Shown here one piece after another: positions 1 through 11,816 of a stretch of 11,816 nt of DNA. Each line of letters opens with the position of its first letter. The first letter of the stretch is position 1. The stretch lies in assembly GCA_964510165.1 (NCBI GenBank), contig CAZEBC010000037.1, positions 13,971 through 25,786 on the forward strand. The letters are read 5' to 3'. Source of the stretch: an uncultured bacterium. GTDB lineage: Bacteria > Abyssobacteria > SURF-5. The position numbers were made by a program.

Positions 1-3000
1 TCGCCCTCGAGGGCGACCTCGCCTTCGTGTTCGCGCATATACATGTAAACGATGACCCTGATATAGTAATAGGCCGCGACGACGCTTGTGAGGACGCCGA
101 TGATCGCGAGAGGCCAGTTATCGGTCAGTACCGCGGCTTTGAATATATACAGTTTACCGATAAAGCCGAATGTAGGGGGTATGCCAGTCAGCGACAGCAT
201 CAGAACGGCCATCAGAAGAGCGGTTATCGGCTTGCGCTTGGCAAGGCCTGCGTAATCGGAGAGCGATTCGCGGGGGTCGTTGGCCTTAGCGAGGCTGATG
301 ACAATGGCAAACGCTCCCAAATTCATGAACATATAGGCGAACAGATACACGAGGACGCTCATCATGGACTCCGGCTTGAGCGCCTCCATGACCGCCGCGA
401 GCTTCGGGTCACCCGAGGTTCTTGCCAGTTCGGTTGCCGAGCCGGCGGCCACAATGCCAATGAGCAGATAGCCTGCGTGCGCGATAGACGAGTACGCAAG
501 CATCCGTTTGATGTTCTGCTGGGAGACGGCGATGACGTTGCCGACGATCATCGTGAGGACCGACAATACCCAGAAGAGCAGTGTCCAGTCCGGAATCAGC
601 AAGTTAAATGATGTCATGTACACCCGCAGGATAACTGCGAATCCGGCGACCTTGGGGCCGACGGACATAAAGGCGGTCAACGGGGTCGGCGCTCCTTCGT
701 ACACGTCGGGAGTCCACATGTGAAACGGCACGGCGGCGATTTTGAAACCGAAGCCGACCGTCATCAGCACGAGCGACAGCGTAATCAGCCTTGAGTTCAG
801 CATGTTTTGCGTGAAGTCAAGGTAGCGTTGGATCCCGACAAGGTTGGTCGTTCCGGTGATCCCGTAGAAAAAGGACATTCCATAGAGCAAGACGGCCGAT
901 GCGAATGCTCCGAGGAGGAAATACTTCATTGAGGCCTCGGACGAGCGCGGATTCTCCCTCTGGAACCCGGCCATAAGATAAATGGAAATGGACATGAGCT
1001 CGAGGCCGATGTAAATGGTGATGAGGTCATTGGCGGCGACCATCACCATCATGCCGACGGTGGAGAAGAGTATCAGTTCGTAGTACTCGGCGGCATTGAT
1101 GTTGAAGAGCCGCAGATAGCGGGGCGACATGAGTATGGAGAAAGCGGCGGAAAGGACGAATATCAGTTTGAAAAACTGGGCGTAAGGGTCGACGGCCACC
1201 ATTCCGCCAAAGGCGGTTTCCTTTCGGTCCCAGATGAGCATGAGCAGCGTGATGAGAAAGGCAACGGCCAATCCCACGACGCCGATGGCAGTCAGCCCTG
1301 CCGGACGCTCTTTCTTCGCCAACAAGTCCACCACCAGCACGGTGAGCCCCACCAGCCCAACAATGAACTCAGGATAGACAGCCGTAATATCGACAACCGG
1401 AAGTTGCATTCTTCAGCTCCACCTAATGGCCTGCAGGGCCTGATTGTCCTGGATGTTCGGGGGCTTGAGCTTCAACCCCGTGAACCGCCCCGACGGGCGG
1501 ATGCGCAGCTTCTCCCTGATGGACCTTTGCTCCGACGGACTGCATGCCTTCTTCGCCGCTCATGCCTGCATGCGAATCGGGCATTATCGGCGGATGACCG
1601 GGCGGTAGGATCGGTGGATGATCGGGTGGCAGGCTCAGTTCAAGGCCCGCCGGATGGCCCTGCCCTTTCATGCGGGCTTGTTCCAGCATCAGTTGCTTTT
1701 CTGCGAGTGCAGCCTTTGGATTAGAAACTTCAACGGTTTTCGCCACGGCGGCATCCATGAATTCGAGGAAGGGCTTCGGGTACAGCCCTATCCAAGCGCA
1801 CATAAGCACAATGGGGATGAGCGTCATGGCTTCCCGCAGGTCGAGGTCCTTCAAGGTCATGTTCTTCGGGTTTTCGAGCTTGCCGAACATCACGCGCTGA
1901 TACAGCCAGAGCATATAAGCGGCGCCCAGCACGATACCACTGGTGGCAAGCAGCACAAGCGTTCTTGAGACGGCAGTGTTCACGACGGCCGCCTCGTTCC
2001 ATAGTGCTCGGAAAGCGCCGACAAGGATCGTGAATTCGCCGATGAACCCGTTGAGTCCCGGCAGTCCGATCGAGGAGAGGGTGACCACCATAAACAGCGC
2101 AGCGTACAGCGGCATCTGTTTGCTGAGCCCTCCGAACTCCTTGATCATGCGAGTATGCCTGCGTTCGTAAATGAGGCCGACCACAAGGAACAGCGCCCCG
2201 GTGCTCAGGCCGTGGTTAATCATTTGAAGAATACCGCCTTCGATGCCCTGCTGGTTGAGCGCAAACACGCCGAGCATCACAAAGCCCAAGTGGCTGACGC
2301 TGGAATACGCAACCAGTTTCTTCATGTCGGGTTGCATCATCGCGGTCAGGGCGCCATAGACGATCCCGACGACGGCAAGTATGATGCCGTAAGGCATGAA
2401 CCACATGGTCGCATCGGGGAACAGCGGCAGACTGAACCTCACGAAGCCGTAGGTGCCCATTTTCAGCAAGACGCCGGCCAGGATGACGCTGCCCGCCGTA
2501 GGCGCCTCGGTGTGGGCGTCGGGCAACCAGGTATGGAACGGGAACATTGGCACCTTGATCGCGAAACCGACAAAGAAGGCGAGGAACAACCACTTCTCGA
2601 TATGGAACGGGATATCGAGGGCGTAGAACTTCATGATCTCGAAGGTGAGCACGTTGTGTTCCTGATAGTACAGGAAGTAAAGACCGAGGATCGCGAGCAG
2701 CATGAGCACGCTGCCTGCGAGCGTGTACAGGAAGAACTTTATCGCAGCATAGAGTTTGCGCTCGCCGCCCCACACGCCGATGAGGAAGTACATCGGAACC
2801 AGCATGACTTCCCAGAACACGTAGAAGAGGAAGAAGTCAAGCGAGAAGAACACGCCCAACATGCCGGTCTGAAGCAAGAGCATGAACACATAGTATTCCT
2901 TCACGCGCTCCTGTATTGCGGTCCACGACGAGAGCACCGCGAGCACGCCCAGGAACGTCGTGAGCATCACCAGAAGGATGCTGATGCCGTCAACGCCGAA

Positions 3001-9000: not shown

Positions 9001-11816
9001 CTTCGGTGGAAGGGCGGGCATCTTTGCGCGCTTTAAACCGCTCACGCCTGCGCAATATTCCTCTTTATCGACCGGCCCGAGCGCCTGGATGATCTTGCGC
9101 ATCCGCATCAACCTGTCGAAGTCGTCATGCTTTCCGCCGCTCAGGTACTTGTCAATCGAGACCGCTGCCTGAAGACCTTGCTGCACCGCGAGGATTACGG
9201 ACTGAGGGCCGGTTGCGGCGTCTCCGCCCGCGAACACGCCGGGCAGCGTGGTTGCGAGGGAATCGGGGTCGACCTCAAACGTGCTGTACTTGGTGATTCC
9301 AAGCCCGTCAATCGTTTTGAAGTAATCCATGTCCGGCGCCTGGCTGACCGCGGCAATCACAAGATCGGCCTCTATCACAAACTCGGAGCCCTTCACGGGC
9401 ACCGGCCTGCGACGCCCGCTCTGGTCAGGCTCGCCGAGTTCCATCCGTATGCATTCAATGCCTTTGACCTTGCCGTTTTCGCCGATGACCCGGGTGGGCG
9501 CGGCCAGGAAGTGCAGCTTCACGCCTTCGTGCTCGGCCTCTTCCACCTCCCACGGGCTGGCGGGCATCTCGGCGCGGGTTCGTCGATAGACGATGTTCAC
9601 GTCCTCGTAGCCCAAATGGACCGGCACACGCGCGCAGTCGATTGCAGAGTTTCCGCCTCCAATCACTATTACCTTCTTGCCGGAAGGAGGCGGCTCGCCA
9701 AGGTTTATTCGGCGGAGAAAGTCCATGGCATCCATGATGCCCTCGTTTTCTTCCTCGCCGGGGATTTCGAGCTTTCGGCCCTTCATCGCGCCGATGGCCA
9801 GAAAGACGGCCTTGAAACCCTGCGCAAACAAATCCTGAATGGAAAAATCCTTCCCGAGCGCGGTGTTGGTCTTTACCTGCACTCCATATTCCTGCACCTG
9901 CTCGATTTCGCCGTTGACGATGTCGCGCGGCAGGCGGTAGGCCGGTATTCCAAGATGAGTAGTGCCCCCGACAACGGGAGCGGCCTCGAAGATGGTGACG
10001 TCATAATCCCATGCGGCAAGCTCGCGCGCGCATGTTGCACCCGCTGGCCCGCTTCCGACAACGGCCACTTTCCCCTTTTCCCCCGTAGACCGATGTGGGG
10101 CGAATCGGAACTGCTTCTGCCTGATAAGCTTCTTCTCGTAATCTGAGACGGACCGCTTCAGGTAAGCTATGGAGATCGGCTCGTCAACTTCGCCTCGCTT
10201 GCACAGCGTCTCGCATGGATGGAAGCACGCACGGCCGCATACCGCCGCAAACGGGTTCGGCGCGCGGGCAACATCTATGGCTGTATTGTATTTGTGTTCT
10301 CGTATGAGTTCAATGTAACGCGCTGCGTCGGTCGAGGCGGGGCAACCGATATTGCACGGCGCCATCATGATCGATTCGGTCGGCGCCGCCGCGCACTTCT
10401 TGCCCTTCAAGTGGGCCTCGAATTCGGCATGGAAGTTATCAAGCGCATCAAGGAGCGGCTTCTCCATCGCGATGCCGAAACCGCACAGCGCCGTGCTGCG
10501 GATGTCGCTTACGAGTGGTCTTAGCCTCTCGACGTCACAGATATCGCCCTCGCCGCTTGCGATCCGGGACAGCGTATCATATATAACGCGCGAACCGACC
10601 CGGCAGGGAAAACACTTGCCGCACGACTTCGCCTGCACCTGCTCGAAGAAGCTGGTCATCAACTGAACGACGCACACATCCTGGCTCAGCAGGACGAGAC
10701 CGCCCCATCCGACGACCGCTTTGAGGTTCGGCGGGCATTTGTCACTTGCGAAAAACTTCGTGTGAGCGGCGGGGATTTTGTCGGCGGTCTCCTCGCCAGC
10801 CAGTTTTCCGCATGGTTTCACAAACCAACTGTCAAAAAAAATCTCGGCCAATGATTTCTCTCCCGATACTCAACCCTGCGCGATATGGGGCTATCGCACA
10901 GTCACTATGCCGGAGATGGCGGGCATCTTTCGGGGCTTCGGTCCAAAATCCTCCAAACGGCCCCGAAATTCACAAGCATATTTTATAGCATGTTTCGCAA
11001 TGGATGTCAAGAGGTTGCGACGCCGCGCGTCAAAAAAACTTTGGCGCATGCTCTGAAAGTATATTTTTGATGGAGAAGCGACTGAAAGTGTCACGTCTTC
11101 TGCGGCCCCGGAACCGGGAACGCCACCGGCTTTATCGAGCGGAATATGTTGTAAACGAAAAATAAGATCGAGACCACATGCCCAATGCCGGAAACTGCGA
11201 TCCCTGCGCGCATCGCGCCGACATACGGCGTCATCTCCATGGCTGTCCAGAAAACCGCCATCAGCGCCAGCGTCACGGTCCCGAGATAATAATGCGCCAC
11301 CATCAAGGTCCGGCTGTGAATCAGCATACCGCTAAACCTGGGCAAAACATGGTAACCTACTCCGTAAATCATCATTGCCATGAACCCGAGCAGGTTCAGG
11401 TGAGTGTGCGCATTGACGAAATAGAGTGCATGGTACGGAAACATGGCCATATCGATGCCCAGGGCCGAGCCTGTAATCAGGCTGACCAGGCTTGTCTTGA
11501 TGAACAGAATCACATACTTGTCCATGGCGTCTACCTCCTCCGTTGACTCTCTCTGCCTCAAGGTTCCTTCATTCGGTCATCAACTATCTTGCTGTCATGG
11601 AGAAGCACCAGTCTTCGCGCATACTTCATGACCATATTGTCCTGCGTGGAAAAGAGGAAGGTGATTTCTCTCCGTTCATTCATTTCCTTCATCACTGCTG
11701 TCCAAGATAACTGAGTTTTCAGGTTTCAGGCATAGCGGAATCCAATGAATATGGGCCTTTTGGACGGGTCATGACCGACTTTCGTTTTGAGGTCCCCCCA
11801 TATGCTGTCCAAGTTA

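What a model noticed while it worked through the whole genome (the two positions that open the first line are those of the whole stretch)
1..10851. Complex I rebuilt from two heads: an SfrB/GltD-type NADPH flavoprotein replaces NuoEF in the only operon holding NuoL an [...]
The genome's single nuoL and nuoM lie in an operon gltD/sfrB-like flavoprotein (653 aa, N-terminal NuoF-type Fe-S domain) - long nuoG - nuoJKLMN, just upstream of the F1Fo genes; a separate nuoABCDHI set (C127:7664-11752) completes it. A second operon (C98:731-11099) has the NADH head NuoEFG and NuoN but no NuoL or NuoM. This predicts an NADPH-type complex I and two input heads sharing the pumping subunits.
Evidence so far: Gene lists. 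The flavoprotein matches NfnA/StnC/GltD structures (199), PRK12771/gltA models and Pfam NADH_4Fe-4S (200, 35), with a GGGNS...YRR second site (205); its partner scores best as NuoG (200). NuoG ortholog in 9 of 9 relatives at 67-75%, within about 900 bp of nuoL on one contig in 7 of 9 (192, 193); flavoprotein directly upstream of nuoG in 5 of 5 tested (197). Antiporter census in 10 genomes: G000 has one NuoL and one NuoM besides Mrp, and a lone NuoN locus recurs in at least 6 relatives (203). Paper searches SfrAB + complex I and complex I lacking NuoEF + NADPH found no such complex (198, 202; passages of PMC13186404 read, 201). The finding spans contig positions 13805 to 24821; this window holds only 13971 to 24821 of it. 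[...]
(Added by a program. Inside this text positions count along the whole contig: contig position 13,971 is position 1 of the stretch shown here. "Call 12" and the like, gene names such as g00115 and contig names such as C1 are that model's own, and its searches are not shown. The text may have been shortened before it was handed on; [...] marks where a part breaks off. The agent that wrote the report below was given it as the finding of a first reader that could run no searches.)

Follow-up and report, generated by a model that had tools for sequence, protein, structure and literature searches.

The report
Complex I with an NADPH head
These genes encode half of a respiratory complex I whose usual NADH-binding input has been swapped for a flavoprotein that probably takes NADPH, a design that recurs in many anaerobic bacteria, often with a formate dehydrogenase attached.

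Summary
Observation confirmed. The window holds one operon on the minus strand: an SfrB/GltD-type flavoprotein, a long G subunit, then nuoJKLMN, with the genome's only nuoL and nuoM. A separate nuoABCDHI set complements it exactly. Two new results support the head swap. (1) Class member G010 (96% complete) has one nuoD, one L/M/N set and no NuoF found. (2) In the phylum of a Thermodesulfobacteriota MAG, sfrB sits between nuoD and nuoH in 46 of 80 fetched loci, where nuoEF normally lie. One correction: G is a formate-dehydrogenase-alpha-like protein without the Sec/His active site. In 24 of those 80 loci its counterpart is an intact Sec/Cys formate dehydrogenase, so the head resembles Moorella's NADP-dependent FdhAB placed on complex I. 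Best reading: a proton-pumping NADPH:menaquinone oxidoreductase (0.72), inferred and not assayed. The second operon lacking L/M is conserved in 7 of 11 class genomes. Whether it borrows L/M or works alone as a short pump is undecided. No description turned up in nine literature searches of an open-access library. New variant of a known kind.

The parts
8890..10851 (-). SfrB/FdhB-type flavoprotein, 653 aa: short N-terminal domain, NuoF N3-type [4Fe-4S] domain (C77, C80, C83, C123), GltD-type FAD/NADP(H) domain (GxGPAG 266-271, GGGNSA 398-403, YRR 422-424, K232), C-terminal ERCMRCYR
6297..8885 (-). Long G subunit, 862 aa (start may be the ATG 27 nt further in). Ligands for N1b, N5, N4, an extra [4Fe-4S] and N7 are present; the Fdh active-site motif CARL(U/C)H reads LARLDN (354-359), so no Sec/Cys-His
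5754..6293 (-). nuoJ
5455..5757 (-). nuoK
3313..5433 (-). nuoL, the only one found in G000; conserved charged-residue motifs present
1423..3264 (-). nuoM, the only one found in G000; about 90-aa Pro/His/Gly-rich C-terminal tail
1..1409 (-). nuoN; continues beyond the window into a 100-N scaffold gap (contig 13871-13970), followed by the F1Fo operon
10982..11010 (-). Promoter-like site: TTGACA, 17 nt, TATAAA, about 160 nt upstream of sfrB. A similar site lies at about -180 in 3 of 7 relatives checked. It does not pass the scanner's rule (0 sites found)

Best explanation
The window operon and the nuoABCDHI operon on C127 together encode one complex I whose input module is SfrB plus a dead Fdh-alpha-like G instead of NuoEFG. 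Shown: gene content, cofactor motifs, conserved linkage, and single-operon versions in other genomes. Inferred: NADPH gives a hydride to FAD in the GltD domain; electrons pass through its two [4Fe-4S] clusters to the retained N3-type cluster, which docks on G as NuoF does, then through N1b/N4/N5, NuoI and N2 to menaquinone; NuoH/A/J/K/N/M/L pump protons. Reverse flow, making NADPH, is possible. The head is the NADP-dependent FdhAB/SfrAB module placed on the 11-subunit core; this lineage has lost the formate site, leaving NADP(H) as the only evident input. Moving ABCDHI out of an ancestral sfrB-G-ABCDHI-JKLMN operon would give the present split in one step (inference).
For: (a) sfrB lies directly before G, and G before nuoJ, in 10 of 10 class relatives (in G010 sfrB is split across two contig ends); the run through JKLMN to atp is on one contig in 7 of 10. 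(b) A C127-type nuoD occurs in 11 of 11 class genomes; full ABCDHI in 7 of 10 fetched, 3 cut by contig ends. (c) G010 (96% complete) has one nuoD, three antiporter-like genes (L, M, N beside sfrB-G), and its only PF01512 hit scores as RnfC. (d) Of 80 loci fetched from 301 genomes of G031's phylum, 55 have nuo genes beside sfrB, 46 have sfrB between nuoD and nuoH, 38 run on through nuoN, and none shows nuoE or nuoF. 25 nuo-linked loci pair a full-length SfrB with a G that fails the Fdh motif, like the window (2 of these keep a Cys and are ambiguous). (e) N3 cysteines, GGGNxA, YRR and LKR are invariant in 63 of 63 nuo-linked SfrB rows. [quoted passage not shown] K232 aligns with K170 of the StnC-type chain 9bov_A (my count); StnC K170 is a cluster ligand of a non-bifurcating NADPH site (PMC10482914, passages). 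(f) The AlphaFold model (pLDDT 92.5) best matches Nfn-ABC, Stn, NfnI, DPD and GltD, NADP(H) enzymes. (g) G000 has a VitK2_biosynth (Mqn-type menaquinone) gene, and Q-site and N2 motifs are intact in C127 B and D. (h) G-ABCDHI-JKLMN (L271) and fdhA-sfrB-ABCDHIJK (L091) fall in the same D and H clade as C127 (SH 1.0).
Against: No assay, no expression data, and no direct evidence that the C37 and C127 products assemble. The two operons were on different contigs in every class genome examined. The tree link weakened with more sampling: the C127 D/H clade also holds loci with nuoE and no sfrB in view (L032, L260, L291-L300), and the window's L and M sit in large mixed clades. The window's SfrB is only 38-43% identical to the nuo-linked Desulfobacterota proteins and groups with NuoF-GltD fusions rather than inside their clade; G does not nest among the Sec-FdhA sequences. 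The link to those operons may be deep homology or a parallel swap. 25 of 80 loci show SfrB with no nuo gene nearby, so the module also works alone. G010 is a draft genome, and G000 has other NuoF-like genes (C98, C216, C284).
Confidence: 0.72

Rival explanations
1. On the second operon, first reader's view: the C98 NADH complex (BCDEAFGHIJKN) borrows NuoL and NuoM from the window operon, so two heads share the distal pumps.
For: All 7 of 7 genomes with the L/M-less operon also carry the window-type L/M operon. Its NuoN keeps every charged residue checked, including the TM12 Lys and the Lys said to contact helix HL (E. coli roles recalled). Its C-terminal part is about as conserved as the window-type NuoN (pairwise identity 0.73-0.81 against 0.69-0.79 over residues 361-420).
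Against: The window-type operon is in all 11 genomes anyway, so co-occurrence says little. The two NuoN types are only 41-45% identical, and one NuoM would have to fit both. PMC4453560 (passage) reports that subunit recombination between complex I clades is rare.
Confidence: 0.5
2. On the second operon, alternative: it is a stand-alone short complex I with NuoN as its only antiporter-like subunit, pumping about 2 H+ per NADH. The cell would have a high gear (NADPH, full arm) and a low gear (NADH, short arm).
For: K abuts N (-3 to 126 bp) in 7 of 7 intact copies. The sister operon L251 (SH 1.0) has L and M between K and N, so the loss was clean and kept. The operon keeps its own A, H, J, K, N. 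Energetics fit: cellular NADPH about -370 mV and NADH about -270 mV (PMC13040438, passage) against menaquinone about -75 mV (recalled) give about 0.6 and 0.4 eV per electron pair. A half-pumping Yarrowia subcomplex lacking ND4/ND5 is known (recalled, not read).
Against: No decay of the M-facing end of its NuoN. No genome without other L/M was found; outside the class, only one short metagenome contig (L250) of 80 showed K next to this NuoN type.
Confidence: 0.38
3. SfrB-G is a soluble SfrAB-like NADPH oxidoreductase that is only co-transcribed, and the 11-subunit core is headless, taking ferredoxin or another donor.
For: SfrB occurs without nuo neighbours in 25 of 80 loci. Geobacter SfrAB is described as involved in NADP regeneration and was purified as a soluble enzyme (PMC13186404, PMC7483475, passages). 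Headless cores are common (PMC13040438, PMC12142623, passages).
Against: Placement exactly in the nuoEF slot in 46 of 80 loci, with G keeping all NuoG-type cluster ligands, and 4-bp and 3-bp gaps in the window, is hard to explain without docking.
Confidence: 0.15
4. The complex is assembled as proposed but uses another donor: NADH, ferredoxin, or a still-active Mo/W site in G.
For: Specificity is untested. G keeps a full-length molybdopterin fold, an extra [4Fe-4S] and N7, which could serve as an entry point.
Against: GGGNxA and YRR are invariant in 63 of 63 rows; all close structural matches use NADP(H); the Sec/Cys-His pair is lost in all 11 class G proteins aligned.
Confidence: 0.12

Closest known systems
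Respiratory complex I (NuoA-N)
   Same: All 11 core subunits are present across C37 and C127, with N2, Q-site and pumping motifs; G carries N1b, N4, N5, N7; an N3-type cluster is kept.
   Different: No NuoE and no FMN/NADH domain; an FAD/NADP(H) GltD domain with two more clusters instead; G is Fdh-length with an extra [4Fe-4S]; the operon is split.
Moorella thermoacetica NADP-dependent formate dehydrogenase (beta = sfrB2; alpha = sfrA2 + fdhF3; PMC13040438, passages)
   Same: SfrB-type beta with an Fdh-alpha partner. JGI names relatives 'formate dehydrogenase beta subunit', some '(NADP+)'. 24 of 80 fetched loci have this pair beside nuo genes.
   Different: Moorella's enzyme is cytosolic and separate from its headless complex I; the window's alpha has lost Sec/His.
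Geobacter SfrAB (NADPH oxidoreductase)
   Same: GltD-like SfrB with a NuoG-like SfrA, tied to NADP(H) balance (PMC7483475, PMC13186404, passages); called a putative NADPH dehydrogenase beside two full complex I sets (PMC2825233, passage).
   Different: Those passages describe no nuo linkage. I had no Geobacter sequence to compare; stand-alone 671-695-aa SfrB-like proteins in my sample are 38-41% identical to the window's.
StnC / NfnABC large subunit (8OH5, 9BOV, 9N5U)
   Same: GltD NADPH domain with a Lys cluster ligand feeding a NuoG-like, inactive FdhF domain (PMC10482914).
   Different: Soluble, fused, and coupled to a HydBC-type bifurcating module; no membrane arm.
[quoted passage not shown]
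   Same: A GltD-type NAD(P) site attached to a complex I-like membrane complex.
   Different: There it substitutes for NuoI on an Mrp-based arm; here it takes the NuoEF position on a true NuoA-N core with NuoI and G kept.
Complex I-like enzymes with other inputs (F420H2, ferredoxin, flavodoxin; PMC4453560, passage)
   Same: The principle of a swapped input module on the 11-subunit core.
   Different: None of those listed uses a GltD/SfrB head or an operon-encoded Sec formate dehydrogenase.

Membership tests
14-subunit NADH:quinone oxidoreductase (complex I) | Membrane arm NuoA, H, J, K, L, M, N | tested here: met
   J-N in the window, A and H on C127
14-subunit NADH:quinone oxidoreductase (complex I) | Q module NuoB, C, D, I with tandem-Cys N2 motif and His/Tyr Q-site residues | tested here: met
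   C127; NuoD passes cut-offs; motifs found
14-subunit NADH:quinone oxidoreductase (complex I) | NuoE and NuoF with the FMN/NADH domain in the same complex | tested here: not met
   No PF01512 in SfrB or on C37/C127; only the N3 domain is kept
14-subunit NADH:quinone oxidoreductase (complex I) | NuoG with N1b, N4, N5 | tested here: inconclusive
   All ligands present, but the score is below the NuoG cut-off, 409 vs 470
14-subunit NADH:quinone oxidoreductase (complex I) | Assembly into one complex; quinone reduction coupled to proton pumping | not testable with these tools
Mo/W formate dehydrogenase alpha (FdhF type) | Sec/Cys metal ligand followed by the catalytic His | tested here: not met
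   LARLDN in the window against CARL-TGA-H in Desulfobacterota loci; Fdh-alpha score 348 vs cut-off 666
SfrB / NADP-dependent FdhB-type flavoprotein | N3-type Fe-S domain followed by a GltD domain, about 650-700 aa, no FMN domain | tested here: met
SfrB / NADP-dependent FdhB-type flavoprotein | NADP(H) motif GxGxxA and following Arg pair | tested here: met
   GGGNSA 398-403 and YRR 422-424, invariant pattern in 63 of 63 rows
SfrB / NADP-dependent FdhB-type flavoprotein | Orthology to Geobacter SfrB or Moorella FdhB | not tested
   No named reference sequence was returned or 48
SfrB / NADP-dependent FdhB-type flavoprotein | Measured NADPH preference | not testable with these tools
   Needs an assay
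Glutamate synthase small subunit GltD | Score above family cut-off and a neighbouring gltB | tested here: not met
   All GltD/gltA models below cut-off; no gltB-sized ORF in the window or on C37
Bifurcating NfnAB large subunit | Glu ligand of the proximal cluster and an NfnA partner | tested here: not met
   Lys (LKR) in 63 of 63 rows, as in non-bifurcating StnC (PMC10482914); no NfnA-like gene in the operon

The most novel reading that the evidence does not exclude
There is an undescribed, widespread class of complex I whose input is the NADP-dependent FdhAB/SfrAB module, in three grades: FdhA(Sec) alone (formate:quinone pump), SfrB plus FdhA(Sec) (formate and NADPH), and SfrB plus dead G (NADPH only, as here). 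This lineage also pairs it with a natural NuoLM-less NADH complex I, giving two pumps with different H+/e- ratios matched to the two nucleotide pools.
Probability: 0.3. Interest if true: 0.88.

Novelty: new variant of a known kind. Interest (0 to 1): 0.72.

Why it matters
A proton-pumping NADPH (and formate) input to complex I would let anaerobes conserve energy from the NADPH pool, or make NADPH by reverse flow, without a transhydrogenase (PntB was not found in 4 of 4 family genomes searched, but was in G010). At least 55 of 301 sampled genomes of one large anaerobic phylum have sfrB beside nuo genes, so many operons annotated as 'glutamate synthase', 'NuoG' or split pseudogenes need re-reading. 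One closed genome (G057) has the Sec-Fdh version, so the claim may be testable in an isolate. It offers a concrete candidate for the unknown donor of some anaerobic complex I enzymes and a reason for the odd SfrAB pair. The L/M-less operon, if it works alone, would be a natural test of modular pumping in complex I.

Tried and rejected
Assembly artefact for missing L/M: rejected; C98 has no N-gap, and K abuts N in 7 of 7 intact copies. Assembly artefact for the split: rejected; ABCDHI has unrelated neighbours on long contigs in several relatives. Mrp standing in for L/M: unlikely; the NuoN query found an Mrp-like pair in only 2 of the 7 genomes with the L/M-less operon (one query, draft genomes). 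'Split nuoG' in Desulfobacterota: it is a TGA in CARL-TGA-H, read as selenocysteine by motif. G nesting among Sec-FdhA: not seen. Desulfurivibrio dismutans nuo cluster as a cultured example: the six supplement rows read show H, I, J, K, an Mrp-like subunit and a hypothetical protein, no SfrB; Dissulfuribacter's cluster runs B-C-D-H-I in consecutive tags. Expression: no RNA holder listed. Complex prediction of SfrB with G: tool not available, no result. ESM Atlas on the C98 NuoN: generic NuoN only. Metagenome scan for L/M-less operons: 1 of 80 loci. Chadwick et al. (2M complexes) was not held.
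Full report
1. Observation. The window carries seven closely packed minus-strand genes (gaps -4 to 48 bp): a 653-aa flavoprotein (8890-10851), an 862-aa G (6297-8885), and nuoJ, K, L, M, N, followed on contig C37 by the F1Fo operon. 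The flavoprotein has the NuoF C-terminal Fe-S domain (64-147), Fer4_20 and Pyr_redox_2, but no FMN/NADH domain. It is below every GltD-family cut-off. tblastn and a PF00361 census of G000 give one nuoL and one nuoM, two nuoN (C37, C98) and MrpA/MrpD on C33. C127 holds nuoABCDHI. C98 holds B C D E A F G H I J K N with a true NuoF (608 vs cut-off 559) and a 527-aa NuoG.

2. The class. GTDB holds 11 genomes of this class. In 10 of 10 relatives sfrB lies directly before G and G before nuoJ; 7 of 10 run on one contig through N to atp, and 3 are cut by contig ends. A C127-type nuoD is in 11 of 11. Full ABCDHI was seen in 7 of 10 fetched relatives, the others cut by contig ends, with unrelated neighbours on long contigs in those I could view (output partly cut). 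G010, from the other family (96% complete, 1% contamination), is the key case: one nuoD, three antiporter-like genes, and a single PF01512 hit that scores as RnfC. From the genes found, its only possible complex I is ABCDHI plus sfrB-G-JKLMN. It is a draft genome, so a missing NuoF cannot be excluded.

3. Other phyla. A scan of named genomes with the G alignment (best 80 of 584) gave single operons nuoABCD-sfrB-G-HIJKLMN in L042 (Thermodesulfobacteriota MAG), L071 (Deltaproteobacteria MAG) and L077, a partial one in L072, and fdhA-sfrB-ABCDHIJK in L091. I then searched 301 genomes of the phylum of L042's genome with the SfrB N-terminal 160 aa: 207 had a match at 1e-20, mostly through the shared Fe-S domain. 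From the 150 listed rows (of 613 matches) I fetched 80 loci, chosen because the match covered the N-terminus, including a few borderline ones. 55 of 80 have nuo genes on the same strand, 46 have sfrB between nuoD and nuoH, 38 continue through nuoN, and none shows nuoE or nuoF. 25 of 80 have no nuo neighbour. This places the flavoprotein in the NuoEF slot by position.

4. What G is. In 24 of the 80 loci the G counterpart is a formate dehydrogenase alpha with CARL-TGA-H (23) or CARLCH (1). The in-frame TGA is read as selenocysteine by motif, not tested. In 25 nuo-linked loci with full-length SfrB the motif test fails; 2 of these (L175, L231) keep a Cys and are ambiguous. The window's G reads LARLDN, and all 11 class G proteins lack the Sec/Cys-His pair. 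The N1b, N5, N4 and N7 ligands are intact in 52 of 52 nuo-linked G rows; the extra [4Fe-4S] has one Cys-to-Asp change in 5. L085, L107, L110, L114 and L115 have the Sec-FdhA in a nuo operon without sfrB; no full-length SfrB was found in the 4 of these 5 genomes searched. [quoted passage not shown] So the head is best seen as the NADP-dependent FdhAB/SfrAB module on a complex I core, with the formate site lost in this lineage. Close longer relatives of the flavoprotein are about 1030-aa NuoF-GltD fusions, so SfrB looks like such a fusion without its FMN/NADH part (inference).

5. Specificity. In 63 of 63 nuo-linked SfrB rows (window included) the four N3 cysteines, GGGN(V/S)A, YRR and LKR are invariant. 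[quoted passage not shown] By my count K232 aligns with K170 of 9bov_A; in StnC K170 ligates the proximal cluster, NfnB has Glu there, and StnC's FAD does not bifurcate (PMC10482914, passages). The AlphaFold model (pLDDT 92.5, pTM 0.91) matches Nfn-ABC, Stn, NfnI, DPD and GltD best. This is family evidence, not an assay.

6. Mechanism. Shown: parts and motifs. Inferred: NADPH, FAD, two GltD clusters, N3-type cluster, G (N1b, N4, N5), NuoI, N2, menaquinone, with pumping by the full arm. G000 has an Mqn-type menaquinone gene, acetyl-CoA synthase and no PntB found. By ORF inspection and similarity only, it also has Rnf, NfnAB-like, Nar-like, StnC-like Sec-Fdh and hydrogenase genes, which would supply NADPH and acceptors. 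Direction cannot be read from sequence.

7. Trees (FastTree, SH support; samples biased towards loci found with G, SfrB or N queries). C127 NuoD and NuoH form a clade (1.0) with L091 (H also with L110 and L114), and window L and M first grouped (1.0) with SfrB/Fdh-headed operons. With more rows the signal weakened: the D/H clade also holds L271 (G-ABCDHI-JKLMN) and loci with nuoE (L032, L260, L291-L300), and L and M fall in large mixed clades. The window's SfrB is 38-43% identical to the Desulfobacterota proteins and groups with the fusions; G does not nest among the Sec-FdhA. Trees are therefore weak support. The order in L271 and L091 suggests that one move of ABCDHI could give the present split.

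8. The L/M-less operon. It is intact in 7 of 11 class genomes, with K to N gaps of -3 to 126 bp; G007 has BCD at a contig end; it was not found in G003 (77% complete), G005 or G010. G001 and G005 have a third operon with their own L and M. Its sister operon L251 has L and M, so they were lost. Its NuoN keeps all charged residues checked (E. coli equivalents recalled) and shows no decay in its C-terminal part, which leans towards a partner. But all class genomes have the window operon, so co-occurrence is uninformative. A stand-alone short pump fits the energetics: about 0.6 eV per pair for NADPH and 0.4 eV for NADH to menaquinone (potentials from PMC13040438; menaquinone value recalled). I give sharing 0.5 and stand-alone 0.38.

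9. Literature. Nine searches were answered. I read passages of PMC9324843, PMC3543383, PMC9888536, PMC2825233, PMC4453560, PMC13040438, PMC13186404, PMC13490349, PMC8528874, PMC12142623 (plus six supplement rows), PMC4046663, PMC10482914 and PMC7483475, and passages plus section 5 of PMC4758237 (one supplement file was not searchable); the rest were listings only. None described an SfrB- or Fdh-headed complex I. The nearest precedent is the gltD-like flavoprotein replacing NuoI in Mbx-like operons (PMC4758237). The library lacks most subscription journals, including Coppi 2007, Marreiros 2013/2016 and Chadwick 2018 (for the last), so an earlier mention is possible.

10. Verdict. Real and conserved. 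It works like complex I but fails membership of the NADH-type 14-subunit family (no NuoE, no FMN/NADH domain) and of the active Fdh family (no Sec/His). New variant of a known kind: NADPH:menaquinone oxidoreductase 0.72; interest 0.72.

Noticed in passing
L170-L249 (e.g. L235 = G057:C1, closed 4.2-Mb genome); L085, L107, L110, L114, L115: Selenocysteine formate dehydrogenase alpha encoded inside or beside nuo operons, with SfrB (24 of 80 loci) or without it: candidate formate:quinone proton pumps. In G057 an RnfC-length PF01512 hit lies just upstream of the operon.
   Followed up: partly
L247 (G217:C29), L249 (G157:C85): nuo operons where SfrB is cut to about 155 aa (N-terminal and N3 domain only, no GltD) before a shortened G: a head with no nucleotide site.
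   Followed up: no
L191, L193, L203, L205, L206; L222: fdhA moved upstream of nuoA, leaving ABCD-sfrB-HIJKLMN; L222 has this order with no G in the fetched 20 kb.
   Followed up: no
L091, L110, L114, L115: Fdh-linked nuo operons whose nuoL position holds two divergent Mrp/NuoM-like genes instead of a typical nuoL.
   Followed up: no
L038 (G000:C98) 8543-9190; L251: C98-type NuoJ has an extra about 55-aa hydrophobic N-terminal part (215-218 aa in 7 of 7); the sister operon with L/M has a 223-aa NuoJ, so it likely predates the L/M loss. nuoA sits between nuoE and nuoF.
   Followed up: partly
L038 about 9500-9600: A REP-like palindromic repeat lies between nuoK and nuoN in G000 only; similar translated text occurs between nuoA and nuoF and on C81 and C256.
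   Followed up: no
L089, L090, L098, L101, L106, L111 (Nitrospirota): About 3 kb of extra genes between nuoD and nuoE in full nuo operons; in L089, L101 and L111 they look like CBS, PHP and histidine-kinase-type genes known from [FeFe]-hydrogenase operons (recalled likeness, not scanned).
   Followed up: no
window 11091-11561 (-): 156-aa membrane protein with a weak COX1 hit (below cut-off) upstream of sfrB; not seen beside sfrB in the relatives' loci.
   Followed up: partly
window 1423-1700 (-): NuoM has an about 90-aa Pro/His/Gly-rich C-terminal tail, of variable length in relatives.
   Followed up: no
window 8890-8930 (-): The C-terminal RCxxC of SfrB (invariant cysteines in 63 of 63) looks like the N-terminal cluster-binding segment of GltD moved to the end (circular permutation; GltD layout recalled).
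   Followed up: partly
G010:C12:3840-5189: G010, which lacks NuoF, has PntB, while 4 of 4 family genomes searched do not; transhydrogenase could route NADH to the NADPH head there.
   Followed up: no
G000:C284 and C111: A NuoF-GltD fusion appears split over two contig ends in front of an [FeFe]-hydrogenase-like gene; about 1030-aa fusions recur in relatives.
   Followed up: no
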